Positions 42,501-45,500 of a stretch of 64,000 nucleotides of DNA are shown one piece after another. The position numbers were made by a program. The stretch lies in assembly GCF_009931435.1 (NCBI RefSeq), contig NZ_CP043414.1; one strand, written 5' to 3'. How positions within the stretch are numbered: position 1 is the first letter of the stretch; each line of letters opens with the position of its first letter. The stretch comes from Escherichia coli (GTDB lineage: Bacteria > Pseudomonadota > Gammaproteobacteria > Enterobacterales > Enterobacteriaceae).

Positions 42501-45500
42501 TTGAAAGTGTCACTGGCGGCACTTACTGCGCCGTTTTCTTCCGCGTTACGTCAGGGATTACAGGCAAGTGAAACTGTGCTGTTGCGCTACAACTGGCCGG
42601 GAAATATTCGTGAACTGCGCAATATGATGGAACGACTGGCGCTATTTTTAAGTGTGGAACCGACGCCGGATTTAACGCCGCAATTTTTGCAGTTGCTACT
42701 GCCGGAACTGGCGCGCGAGTCGGCGGAAACTCCCGGTCCATGCTTACTGACGCCACAACAGGCACTGGAGAAATTTAATGGCGATAAAACAGCCGCGGCG
42801 AATTATTTAGGTATCAGCCGAACGACATTCTGGCGGCGGCTGAAAAACTGAAATGCCGAATCCAGCGCGAACGCCTTATCCGGCATAAATTTCAATAGAT
42901 GATCACCGATAAACTTACGCATCGGGCATGTTTACATGGGGTGCAGAATTATTTCTTCTTATAAATATTTGCCGTGCCGTGGATCTTATTGTCAGTTTGA
43001 CCAGAGGTCAGCACCAACACATCTGCCCCTTTTTCATCCGCTTTTTTGATCAGATCTTCTTTCGCATCTGCAGTCGACATTTCATTACTGGTTGAAATAT
43101 CACCTATTTTTTCATATTGCGATGCAACTTTTTCAAATTCTGCTTTGGTCATTAATTCTGCGGCATAAACGTTGGTAACGGCAAACGCTAACGCACCGAT
43201 TAACATTTTAGAGATTATTTTCATATTACGGCTCCAGAGTTGTTATCAAACTATCACCCACCCATATTATTGGGTTGATTAATAATTAGTTCAGTCAGGG
43301 CATAAACGCCAGTAACCGGAAATAAGACACTTTGTGATCTCTCTCGCATCCGATTACTTTTTGTAGAAATATGATGAAGTTACTTCACTTATTTATGGAT
43401 GAAATCACATGGATCCCTTGCACGCCGTTTACCTGACCGTAGGACTGTTCGTGATGACTTTTTTTAATCCGGGAGCCAATCTTTTTGTGGTGGTACAAAC
43501 CAGCCTGGCTTCCGGTCGACGCGCAGGAGTGCTGACCGGGTTGGGCGTGGCACTGGGCGATGCGTTTTATTCCGGGTTGGGTTTGTATGGTCTTGCGACA
43601 CTCATTACGCAGTGTGAGGAGATTTTTTCGCTTATTAGAATCGTCGGCGGCGCTTATCTCTTATGGTTTGCGTGGTGCAGCATGCGCCGCCAGTCAACAC
43701 CGCAAATAAGCACACTACAACAACCGATTAGCGCCCCCTGGTATGTCTTTTTTCGCCGTGGATTAATTACCGATCTCTCTAATCCACAGACCGTTTTATT
43801 TTTTATCAGTATTTTCTCAGTAACGTTAAATGCTGAAACACCAACTTGGGCACGTTTAATGGCCTGGGCGGGAATTGTGTTCGCATCAATTATCTGGCGA
43901 GTCTTTCTTAGTCAGGCGTTTTCTTTGCCCGCTGTGCGTCGTGCTTATGGGCGTATGCAACGCGTTGCCAGTCGGGTTATTGGTGCAATTATTGGTGTAT
44001 TCGCGCTACGCCTGATTTACGAAGGAGTAACGCAGCGGTGAGCAGATAATTTACTCTCTACGTAATCAACCTGATTTGCCGAATCCCGCTCATCGGCGAT
44101 GATACCCCCCGTAATGCGTGGTCCTTATTTCCGATAAGTTTACTTGAGTCTTTAGCTTCCCATTTCAGCCCACTCTCCCCTGTGTGGGCTTTTTTCATTT
44201 GTCTGCTTCAGTGAGTAGCTGGCAATGCTCCATCCACTCTGCAAGGATGATAATAAGAGGATCTGATTCAGAAGAGTTTTGAAAAATTGGACCGCCATCG
44301 AGGCCTCGAACCCCGTACCATACAACAATCCTGGTTGTCGTCTGCTCTTCCTGATGAGCTAATGGCGGTTTGTGATATGAGCCTTACAGCATATTGTCTG
44401 TCAGGCTTGAGTGCGATGCGTAAGATACAGAAAAGACCCCACACAAACATGATGGAATTATGATTTTTTTCATATGAATGTCAACCAACACATTCATAAA
44501 ACACTCGCACAAGTTCACTTTTTAAGCAACATGACGCCGATCACAACAAAATATCGGCGAAAAAGGAGGGTAAATGCCATTTGACGTAGAGATAAGCAGA
44601 TGAAATGATTACCCGCTTTGCGATTCACTCTCTGATGGAATAAGAAATTGGAGATGGAAAAGTTTCTAAACTAAAGAGTGTAGCGTATTTTAACGTGCTT
44701 ATTTACAGGATAATATTTGTCACCTAATTCCTGCACTCTATTAGATACCCATTGATTTAATCGTGCATCATCTCTGTATGTTTTTACGTTCAGAACGGAG
44801 AGCAATAACATCACTAGCGATTCAGGAAAAACAGGGTAAATATTTTTTAAGTGCAATAATAATTCATACGCAAGCGCCTGCTTAATAGGTGCGTCTGCGT
44901 CCGGAATGCGCGACATTTCGCGAAGCCATTTTTCTACATGCTCACATTCTTTCCCTTCACGGAAAAGTCTCAACAAAGGCATATGGTGCTCAAGAAGAAT
45001 GCATTTGCAATCTGTTCGTACTGAATCGATAAACTGCACTAATTTCTTAAGTCCGGTGAAGCGTCCGGCATGGATATTCTCTTTAATATCAAGAAACACG
45101 TCATCCTGATCATATACCCAAACGGTCCCTTTTTGATTTTCAAGTATCCGAAAAACAAACTTAATCGGGTAATCAGGGTAATCCACCCAGTCATAAACTC
45201 CAGGGAAATCATTAAACTGCACATTTATGGTAAGCGCATTGTCGGCTGCCCACTCGCAATCTCGTACGGCAGCCATGAGATAAATGAGTTTATCATCATC
45301 GACTAAATCATCACGACAATCATAAGGATAATCATAGTATTGTTTAATCAAAACCTTGAATATATCGACACAAGAAACCAGTGTACTTCTGATATCTTCA
45401 GGTAACTGATTGTTTTTAAACGTATTGTGTACGCTTTGTTTCGTATATAGCAACAAATTATTGTGCGGCGCTTTTAATGGTATCATTGCGATCTCTCTTA

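What the first reader, a model, noticed from the sequence alone, without database searches (positions are those of the whole stretch)
44042..44670. No intact yahM; spacer holds a terminator and the tRNA-like element instead
K-12 annotates an 81-aa yahM between yahL and yahN. The six-frame track shows no minus-strand ORF of 60 aa or more at the expected position. The interval contains a plus-strand intrinsic terminator (44166-44198) and the cloverleaf described above. Either yahM is a K-12 over-annotation or it has decayed here.
Basis: partly seen in the sequence, partly recalled or inferred. Interest (0 to 1): 0.3.

Follow-up and report, generated by a model that had tools for sequence, protein, structure and literature searches.

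The report
yahM is really a tRNA-like gene
The "missing" small protein gene yahM was probably never a real protein gene; what evolution preserves at this spot, in this strain and in E. coli K-12 alike, is a promoter driving an unannotated, phage-derived tRNA look-alike that cannot read codons.

Summary
The window has no intact yahM: three indels at 44211-44236 (net -5 nt) split it into 48- and 46-codon pieces. NCBI's PGAP annotation pipeline marks the nearest strain's copy as frameshifted. A plus-strand hairpin with a T6 tract (44167-44196) and an ARAGORN cloverleaf (44288-44368, minus strand) are both present.

"Instead" is wrong, though. K-12 has the same terminator and cloverleaf. Its yahM ORF starts inside the cloverleaf's 3' acceptor strand (ATGGCGGTCCA) and runs antisense through the yahN terminator.

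yahM does not evolve like a protein:
- 11 of 13 variable sites among intact alleles are non-synonymous, and pN/pS is 2.1 against 0.12 for yahN.
- The ORF is independently broken in O157:H7, Nissle, E. albertii and two other Escherichia lineages.

The 81-nt cloverleaf is identical in all these lineages, although the 88-nt transcribed leader just upstream is only 81-88% identical. Of 5170 E. coli records, 4821 carry this allele and 301 carry one pair-preserving change. Its near-consensus sigma-70 promoter (44484-44457) is conserved too.

The element descends from the Stx-phage argN tRNA-Arg family but has an aberrant anticodon arm and fails Rfam's tRNA model. It is most likely an expressed, non-decoding tRNA mimic. 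Its function is inferred, not shown.

The parts
43409..44041 (+). yahN (LysE-family transporter) CDS, 210 aa here. It converges on the yahM/tRNA-like transcription unit.
   Evidence: Used as the coding control: pN/pS 0.12, with 11 of 13 variable sites at third codon positions.
44167..44196 (+). Intrinsic-terminator-like hairpin for yahN: AGCCCAC / GTGGGCT stem, 10-nt loop, then T6.
   Evidence: dG -13.3 kcal/mol, z -4.5. 0 of 33 columns substituted (2 gapped) among 10 E. coli sequences, and 91% identical in E. albertii. On the minus strand it has no U tract.
44058..44198 (-). C-terminal fragment of the K-12 yahM ORF (46 codons). It is antisense to the yahN 3' UTR and terminator.
   Evidence: In L006 and E. 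albertii the ATG is ACG and 1-nt indels break the frame.
44152..44298 (-). N-terminal fragment of the yahM ORF (48 codons from the K-12 ATG at 44298). It contains the indel zone at 44211-44236 that shifts the frame.
   Evidence: The stretch after the tRNA-like element is the least conserved part of the spacer: 54 variable and 48 gapped columns of 115.
44288..44368 (-). 81-nt tRNA-like element. It has a 7-bp acceptor stem, a canonical D arm (G18 G19) and T arm (UUCGAGG), discriminator U and an encoded CCA. The anticodon arm is aberrant: either 7 bp with a 6-nt loop, or 5 bp with loop CAGGAUU (A33, U37).
   Evidence: ARAGORN; fold. 100% identical in K-12, E. albertii, Escherichia sp. E1V33 and L006. 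4821 of 5170 E. coli records are identical and 301 carry one G.U-to-G-C change. Homologous to phage argN. No Rfam tRNA hit.
44369..44450 (-). Predicted 5' leader of the tRNA-like precursor; the transcription start near 44450 is inferred from the -10 box. The last 24 nt (44369-44392) are homologous to the ileZ 3' end and the ileZ-argN spacer of phages.
   Evidence: Moderately conserved: 33 of 88 columns vary.
44457..44484 (-). Sigma-70 promoter: TTGACA, 16-nt spacer, CATAAT (11 of 12 matches to consensus).
   Evidence: 2 of 28 columns substituted (1 more gapped) across 13 Escherichia sequences, against 23 of 34 just upstream. A 'yahM promoter' and transcription start were confirmed by Reg-seq in K-12, with IHF as repressor. 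That this is the same promoter is an inference.

Best explanation
The spacer contains no yahM protein gene, in this strain or, functionally, in K-12. 'yahM' is an incidental ORF. Its ATG is the ATG of the 3' acceptor strand (ATGGCGGTCCA) of a tRNA-like gene. It then crosses a fast-evolving, indel-rich stretch and runs antisense through the yahN 3' UTR and terminator.

The unit kept by selection is a near-consensus sigma-70 promoter (44484-44457) followed by an 81-nt tRNA-like RNA (44368-44288, minus strand). This RNA descends from the argN tRNA-Arg(UCG) gene of the ileZ-argN-argO cluster of lambdoid and Stx phages.

Shown here:
- The ORF is frameshifted in the window.
- The ORF shows no protein-level constraint.
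- The tRNA-like element and its promoter are almost invariant across Escherichia.
- The element is homologous to phage argN.
- Its anticodon arm is not canonical.

Inferred:
- The promoter makes a precursor with a leader of about 80 nt.
- RNase P and 3' trimming release an ~81-nt RNA ending in the encoded CCA, because the acceptor/T minihelix and the D/T elbow are intact.
- This RNA cannot decode, and acts as a tRNA mimic (decoy or regulator) towards some tRNA-binding protein.
- The rest of the transcript reads antisense into the yahN 3' end.
For: ORF disruption:
- Three indels, net -5 nt, relative to K-12. PGAP marks the nearest strain's copy 'frameshifted'.
- Independent breaks in other lineages: O157:H7 has CAG to TAG at codon 12; Nissle is frameshifted; L006 retains 11 aa, E. 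albertii 31 aa and E1V33 17 aa.

No coding constraint:
- Among 8 intact alleles there are 13 variable sites, 11 non-synonymous. By codon position they fall 3/7/3.
- pN/pS is 2.12, against 0.12 for the adjacent yahN.
- No Pfam or NCBIfam family matches.

Conservation of the RNA unit across 13 Escherichia sequences:
- tRNA-like element: 1 of 81 columns varies.
- Promoter: 2 of 28.
- Leader: 33 of 88.
- Upstream of -35: 23 of 34.
- After the tRNA-like element: 54 variable plus 48 gapped of 115.

At the divergence seen in the leader, zero changes in three non-coli lineages has Poisson P of about 1e-12, even after excluding the 23-mer used to find those loci.

Population data: 4821 records carry this allele, 301 carry the single O157 change that turns a T-stem G.U pair into G-C, and about 47 carry something else.

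Origin: the acceptor, D and T arms and 24 nt of upstream flank match phage argN and its ileZ-side flank.

Expression in K-12: Reg-seq confirms a yahM promoter and start site repressed by IHF. RNA-seq shows yahM-yahN convergent overlapping transcription. 'yahM' transcripts rise when STEC adheres to epithelial cells.

Structure: the cloverleaf is the minimum-energy fold both alone and within the precursor.
Against: - No experiment seen here shows a processed ~81-nt RNA, and no processing or binding partner is known.
- I could not obtain the Reg-seq start-site coordinates, so equating 'yahMp' with the 44484-44457 promoter is an inference.
- The element is dispensable in some strains. 258 of 5426 genomes lack it, strain HS is said to lack yahM, and one strain tolerates an IS1 inside it.
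- Because it is invariant there is almost no covariation evidence, only one pair-preserving change.
- Similar degenerate argN copies in phages sit in the argN slot and look like ordinary decay.
- The cross-species loci were found with an exact 23-mer from the element, so lineages with diverged copies would have been missed.
- The fold z-score of the element alone is only -1.9.
- In K-12 the yahM ATG has a GAGG 5 nt upstream, so some translation cannot be excluded.
Confidence: 0.6

Rival explanations
1. yahM is a genuine but young small protein (81 aa), restricted to E. coli proper, that has simply decayed in this lineage. On this reading the tRNA-like element is conserved because it carries the gene's ribosome-binding site and start codon.
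For: The ORF is intact in most sampled E. coli, and PGAP names it 'protein YahM'. A GAGG lies 5 nt upstream of the ATG (sequence). The locus is transcribed and regulated.
Against: pN/pS is 2.1 with no third-position excess. There are independent nonsense or frameshift alleles in O157:H7, Nissle and the window lineage. The frame is not conserved in any non-coli Escherichia. A ribosome-binding site and ATG cannot explain invariance of all 81 nt when the ORF body right behind them is the most variable part of the spacer. Both the GAGG and the ATG are buried in the T and acceptor stems.
Confidence: 0.12
2. The conserved unit works mainly through antisense transcription. The promoter drives a transcript across the 3' end of yahN (a convergent 'excludon') to down-regulate yahN. 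The tRNA-like element is only a 5' processing or stability module for that transcript.
For: ExcludonFinder lists yahM-yahN as a convergent excludon in at least 50% of K-12 RNA-seq samples. No minus-strand terminator lies between the tRNA-like element and yahN. The promoter is conserved.
Against: In Escherichia sp. E1V33 the yahN 3' UTR and terminator region is replaced (29-33% identity), yet the tRNA-like element is still 100% identical. A stability module would not need every one of its 81 nt fixed.
Confidence: 0.15
3. The cloverleaf is a neutral relic: a dead argN copy left by an ancient lambdoid prophage, with no present function.
For: It derives from a phage tRNA cluster and keeps a trace of the ileZ-side flank. 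Comparable degenerate argN copies exist in phages. Some strains lack it or carry an IS1 in it.
Against: It has zero substitutions in E. albertii, E1V33 and L006, although the adjacent leader differs at 12-19% of positions (P about 1e-12). Two alleles account for 99% of 5170 E. coli records, and the minor allele preserves pairing. A near-consensus promoter is co-conserved with it.
Confidence: 0.06

Closest known systems
argN, the tRNA-Arg(UCG) gene of the ileZ-argN-argO cluster upstream of stx in lambdoid and Stx phages (e.g. Stx2a_WGPS8, AP012540)
   Same: Same acceptor stem (CCGCCAU/AUGGCGG), discriminator U and encoded CCA. The D arm and T arm are near-identical. The 7-nt ileZ-argN spacer and the end of ileZ are still recognisable upstream.
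   Different: The phage gene is 77 nt with a normal CU-UCG-AA anticodon loop and scores 53.6 bits on Rfam tRNA. The chromosomal element is 81 nt with an extended hairpin in place of the anticodon arm and gives no Rfam tRNA hit. It has its own sigma-70 promoter and sits between yahL (or yahK) and yahN, not in a prophage late region.
Degenerate argN copies in phages and phage-like plasmids (phiP27, pHX138.261ft_1 'tRNA-OTHER', several IMG/VR contigs)
   Same: These are 81 nt and share the shortened D loop (GGAAGAGC) and the GCAGACGACA junction. They also have a non-canonical hairpin in place of the anticodon arm. Identity to the window element is 84-87%.
   Different: They still lie between ileZ and argO. 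The hairpin sequence differs by 4-nt indels on either side. They vary among phages, whereas the chromosomal copy is invariant.
tRNA-Other of Bacillus cereus, a chromosomal pseudo-tRNA with a regulatory role (PMC3399842)
   Same: It is a chromosomal tRNA look-alike that does not function in translation yet has a function (abstract seen). This is the kind of role proposed here.
   Different: It has an unrelated sequence in an unrelated organism. Its function was shown by deletion, and nothing comparable has been done for the Escherichia element.
K-12 YahM (b0327, P75692), annotated as an uncharacterised 81-aa protein
   Same: Same locus. The window keeps both halves of the ORF at 92-100% nucleotide identity outside the indel zone.
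   Different: The ORF is frameshifted here. Across Escherichia it shows none of the signatures of a coding sequence.

Membership tests
Canonical decoding tRNA (Rfam RF00005) | Cloverleaf with 7-bp acceptor stem, D arm with G18 G19, T arm with UUCRA loop, and a 3' CCA or a site for it | tested here: met
   ARAGORN; RNAfold minimum-energy cloverleaf; D loop AUCAGGAA and T loop UUCGAGG read from the sequence.
Canonical decoding tRNA (Rfam RF00005) | Score at or above the family's gathering threshold (29 bits) | tested here: not met
   No tRNA match even at E <= 10 in the window or in K-12. The canonical phage argN scored 53.6 bits in the same run. PGAP annotates no tRNA here in any listed genome.
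Canonical decoding tRNA (Rfam RF00005) | 5-bp anticodon stem with a 7-nt loop carrying U33 and a purine at position 37 | tested here: not met
   The minimum-energy fold gives 7 bp plus the 6-nt loop CCAGGA. ARAGORN's alternative loop CAGGAUU has A33 and U37, with four extra nt before the stem.
Canonical decoding tRNA (Rfam RF00005) | Aminoacylation and use on the ribosome | not testable with these tools
   Needs acid-gel Northern or charging assays.
Phage argN family (ileZ-argN-argO cluster) | Sequence homology over the acceptor, D and T arms | tested here: met
   84% to phiP27, 87% to a plasmid copy, 76% to Stx2 argN, with E down to 5e-19.
Phage argN family (ileZ-argN-argO cluster) | Location between ileZ and argO, downstream of Q or a methyltransferase gene and upstream of stx or lysis genes | tested here: not met
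   It is chromosomal, between yahN and yahL. Only 24 nt of the ileZ-side flank survive. No significant similarity to ileZ or argO was found beyond that.
Phage argN family (ileZ-argN-argO cluster) | UCG anticodon | tested here: not met
YahM protein (K-12 b0327) | Intact 81-codon ORF | tested here: not met
   Net -5 nt of indels; fragments of 48 and 46 codons.
YahM protein (K-12 b0327) | Evolution as a coding sequence (excess of synonymous change, frame kept between species) | tested here: not met
   pN/pS 2.12; codon positions 3/7/3. The frame is lost in five other lineages.
Rho-independent terminator (of yahN) | G+C-rich hairpin followed directly by a U tract on the transcribed strand | tested here: met
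   7-bp stem, -13.3 kcal/mol, then T6 on the plus strand. Conserved in E. coli. The rule-based scanner did not call it because the loop is 10 nt. Termination itself was not tested.
Functional pseudo-tRNA / tRNA-mimic non-coding RNA | Expressed as a discrete stable RNA, conserved, and not used in decoding | tested here: inconclusive
   Conservation and the non-decoding anatomy are shown. A promoter and transcription are reported for K-12. No evidence is available here for a discrete processed RNA.

The most novel reading that the evidence does not exclude
E. coli K-12 and the rest of the genus Escherichia carry an unannotated, domesticated phage tRNA: an 81-nt non-decoding tRNA mimic with its own IHF-repressed sigma-70 promoter. 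It has been hidden for decades under the protein annotation 'yahM'. It would act as a decoy or regulator for a tRNA-binding enzyme, for example a tRNA-targeting toxin, a modification enzyme or a processing enzyme.
Probability: 0.4. Interest if true: 0.65.

Novelty: new variant of a known kind. Interest (0 to 1): 0.45.

Why it matters
yahM belongs to the uncharacterised 'y-ome' of the best-annotated bacterial genome. Recent promoter-dissection and transcriptome papers still treat it as an unknown protein. If the product is a tRNA-like RNA, those data need re-reading: the IHF-repressed 'yahM promoter' would control an RNA gene.

It would also be a clear case of a phage tRNA captured by a host, stripped of its decoding function and then held invariant across a genus. 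That links to current interest in phage tRNAs and tRNA-targeting defence systems.

For annotation practice, it shows how an ORF can be propagated through thousands of genomes although it starts inside a structured RNA and runs antisense through a terminator.

Tried and rejected
- **Rfam scan of the spacer at E <= 10.** It gave only chance-level hits that reflect the terminator hairpin or AT-rich runs: Betaproteobacteria_toxic_sRNA at E 0.19, plus PrrF and STnc320. None was accepted.
- **Rule-based terminator scan.** It found nothing because of its loop limit. Direct folding replaced it.
- **Is the whole leader a decayed ileZ, and the post-tRNA stretch a decayed argO?** Local alignment scores were no better than shuffles (93 of 500 and 73 of 500 shuffles reached them). 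Only the 24 nt next to the element are accepted as homologous.
- **The 60-aa ORF at 44268-44450(-) and the 46-aa ORF at 44058-44198(-) as alternative real genes.** Both are broken in other lineages.
- **The element as a phage or island integration site.** The only disruption seen was a sporadic IS1.
- **Literature.** No paper in the held library links yahM, yahL or yahN to a tRNA-like element. Searches for ileZ, argN and argO returned only noise.
- **Reg-seq start-site coordinates.** They were not recoverable from the text or supplements.
- **Protein-database searches for YahM homologues.** Not run, because the DNA comparison already settled the coding question.
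Full report
**What is at the coordinates**

The window is Escherichia DNA in the reverse orientation of K-12. The gene order is prpR (+), yahO (-), yahN (+, 43409-44041), the spacer 44042-44670, yahL (-, 44671-45486) and yahK (-). The spacer is about 91% identical to most E. coli. It is at least 99% identical to only 17 of 5174 matching records, so the window comes from a locally divergent lineage.

K-12 annotates an 81-aa yahM ORF on the minus strand, 16 nt from the end of yahN. In the window this ORF is interrupted by three indels (+4, -7, -2; net -5 nt) at about 44211-44236. That leaves a 48-codon piece from the K-12 ATG (44298 down to 44152) and a 46-codon piece (44198 down to 44058). 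About 18 complete genomes share this allele. PGAP labels it 'frameshifted' in the nearest strain.

The plus-strand hairpin and T6 tract at 44167-44196 fold at -13.3 kcal/mol, z = -4.5. ARAGORN finds a cloverleaf at 44288-44368 on the minus strand.

The terminator and the cloverleaf are not substitutes for yahM. K-12 has both, base for base. ARAGORN finds the same element at L001 1752-1832, and the K-12 yahM CDS at 1517-1762 begins inside it. The yahM start codon is the ATG of the 3' acceptor strand, ATGGCGGTCCA. From there the ORF crosses the most variable part of the spacer and then reads antisense through the yahN terminator and 3' UTR.

**Is yahM a protein gene?**

I compared the locus in 10 E. 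coli of different types, E. albertii, Escherichia sp. E1V33 and a further divergent genome labelled E. coli (L006).

- The ORF is intact (81 aa) in K-12, REL606, O26 and several others.
- O157:H7 has a nonsense codon at position 12.
- Nissle 1917 has a frameshift.
- L006, E. albertii and E1V33 retain only 11, 31 and 17 codons. In L006 and E. albertii the C-terminal half also carries 1-nt indels and ACG in place of the internal ATG.

Among eight intact alleles there are 13 variable sites, of which 11 change the amino acid. They fall 3/7/3 over codon positions 1/2/3, and pN/pS is 2.12. In the same genomes the last 399 nt of yahN have 11 of 13 variable sites at third positions and pN/pS of 0.12. 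YahM matches no Pfam or NCBIfam model.

The 60-aa ORF at 44268-44450, which crosses the leader and the cloverleaf, is also broken in O26, L006 and E. albertii. So no ORF in the spacer behaves like a coding sequence. yahM is best regarded as an over-annotation that also happens to be frameshifted here.

**What is conserved instead**

Conservation across the 13 sequences, by segment:

| Segment | Variable columns |
|---|---|
| tRNA-like element | 1 of 81 |
| Promoter | 2 of 28 |
| Leader | 33 of 88 |
| Upstream of -35 | 23 of 34 |
| After the tRNA-like element | 54 variable + 48 gapped, of 115 |

The element is 100% identical between K-12 and E. albertii, E1V33 and L006. The adjacent leader is only 84%, 81% and 88% identical in those three. 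At the leader's divergence rate, the chance of no change in the three lineages is about 1e-12. That figure already excludes the 23-mer I used to fish these loci out of the genome collection.

In complete E. coli genomes, 4821 of 5170 matching records carry exactly the window's allele. Another 301, from the O157:H7 group, carry one substitution, and about 47 carry something else. The O157 substitution turns the G.U pair of the T stem into G-C, so it preserves the structure.

The promoter TTGACA-16-CATAAT (44484-44457, 11 of 12 matches to consensus) is conserved with the element. Synteny with E. albertii and E1V33 breaks at about 44501, just upstream of the promoter, because both lack yahL. The selected block is therefore roughly 44288-44501: a promoter, a leader and the tRNA-like element.

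**Where the element comes from**

It is homologous to argN, the tRNA-Arg(UCG) gene between ileZ and argO upstream of stx in lambdoid and Stx phages. The acceptor stem, D arm, T arm, discriminator U and CCA are shared. Homology continues 24 nt upstream into the ileZ-argN spacer and the end of ileZ.

A scan of IMG/VR returned mostly canonical 77-nt argN genes. It also returned a few 76-81-nt variants with wrecked anticodon arms, still sitting in the argN slot. The 81-nt phiP27-type variants are the closest relatives of the chromosomal copy, at 84-87% identity.

**What the element is not**

It is not a decoding tRNA. The anticodon arm folds as 7 bp with a 6-nt loop. In ARAGORN's alternative it is 5 bp with the loop CAGGAUU, which has A33 and U37, plus four extra bases before the stem.

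Rfam's tRNA model gives no hit at E <= 10 for the window or for K-12. In the same search the canonical phage argN scores 53.6 bits. ARAGORN's 'tRNA-Ser(gga)' label is therefore an artefact. The upper half of the molecule is fully canonical, including U8, A14, G18 G19, the UUCGA T loop, G53-C61, the 7-bp acceptor stem and the encoded CCA.

**How it most likely works**

Published K-12 data fit an RNA gene as well as a protein gene:

- Reg-seq confirms an active 'yahM promoter' and start site, repressed by IHF.
- RNA-seq shows convergent overlapping transcription of yahM and yahN.
- 'yahM' transcripts rise when STEC adheres to epithelial cells.

I infer that transcription starts near 44450. The cloverleaf forms within the precursor, where it is still the minimum-energy fold. 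RNase P and 3' trimming would then release an ~81-nt RNA ending in CCA. This is an inference from general knowledge that the acceptor/T minihelix is what those enzymes recognise. Because it cannot decode, the RNA would act as a tRNA mimic towards some tRNA-binding protein. The chromosomal pseudo-tRNA 'tRNA-Other' of Bacillus cereus is a precedent for such a role (PMC3399842).

The partner and the phenotype are unknown, and none of the processing steps has been shown.

**Rivals**

- A young, E. coli-only YahM protein. This fits the intact ORFs but not the substitution pattern or the repeated losses.
- An antisense ('excludon') role against yahN. This fits the transcription data. It does not explain why all 81 nt are fixed even where the yahN 3' region has been replaced, as in E1V33.
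- A neutral phage relic. The invariance contradicts this.

**Caveats**

- The element is absent from 258 of 5426 genomes.
- It is interrupted by IS1 in one strain.
- It offers almost no covariation.
- The cross-species sample was collected with an exact word from the element itself.
- I found no paper in the held library that connects this locus with a tRNA-like RNA, but that library is incomplete.

**Verdict**

As written, the finding is a modest annotation point and is essentially right. The more interesting result is that the yahM locus of Escherichia, K-12 included, appears to encode a conserved, promoter-equipped, phage-derived tRNA mimic rather than a protein.

Noticed in passing
window 44671-45486 (yahL); loci L004, L007, L012: yahL is an accessory gene. 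It is absent in E. albertii (which also lacks everything from about window 44502 to 52250), in Escherichia sp. E1V33 and in Nissle 1917. In each case the breakpoint falls just upstream of the tRNA-like promoter, near 44501. YahL has no significant Pfam match.
   Followed up: partly
window 44268-44450 (-): A 60-aa ORF starts at an ATG exactly where the promoter's transcription start is predicted, so its mRNA would be leaderless. It runs through the leader and the whole tRNA-like element. It is intact in most E. coli but broken in O26, L006 and E. albertii.
   Followed up: yes
window 44535-44559: A conserved hairpin (CGCCGAT...ATCGGCG, about -10 kcal/mol) lies about 110 nt downstream of the yahL stop. 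The T run precedes it on the yahL strand and an A run follows it on the other strand, so it is not a canonical terminator for either. K-12 has a 40-nt insertion next to it, near window 44517.
   Followed up: partly
window 54654-55106; also about 13030-13224 and 10831-11020: A tandem array of 4.9 copies of a 93-bp unit made of REP-type palindromes (a BIME-like array). Related copies occur at two other places in the window.
   Followed up: partly
window 43409-44041: yahN is called as 210 aa here and in the nearest strain, against a 672-nt (223-codon) CDS in K-12. The start region differs in this lineage.
   Followed up: no
L019 (E. coli DETEC-S792) 4001-4815: An IS1 is inserted inside the tRNA-like element, after nt 62. 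PGAP still annotates an intact 'yahM' downstream of it.
   Followed up: partly
L010 (Yersinia phage YeP1) 2502-2580; IMG/VR loci L057 and L100: More distant relatives of the same acceptor and T-arm scaffold occur in other phage tRNA clusters, again with abnormal anticodon arms. One is annotated tRNA-Pseudo-TTG; ARAGORN calls the others 'Ser(gct)' next to a tRNA-Thr. This tRNA scaffold seems to lose its anticodon arm repeatedly.
   Followed up: partly
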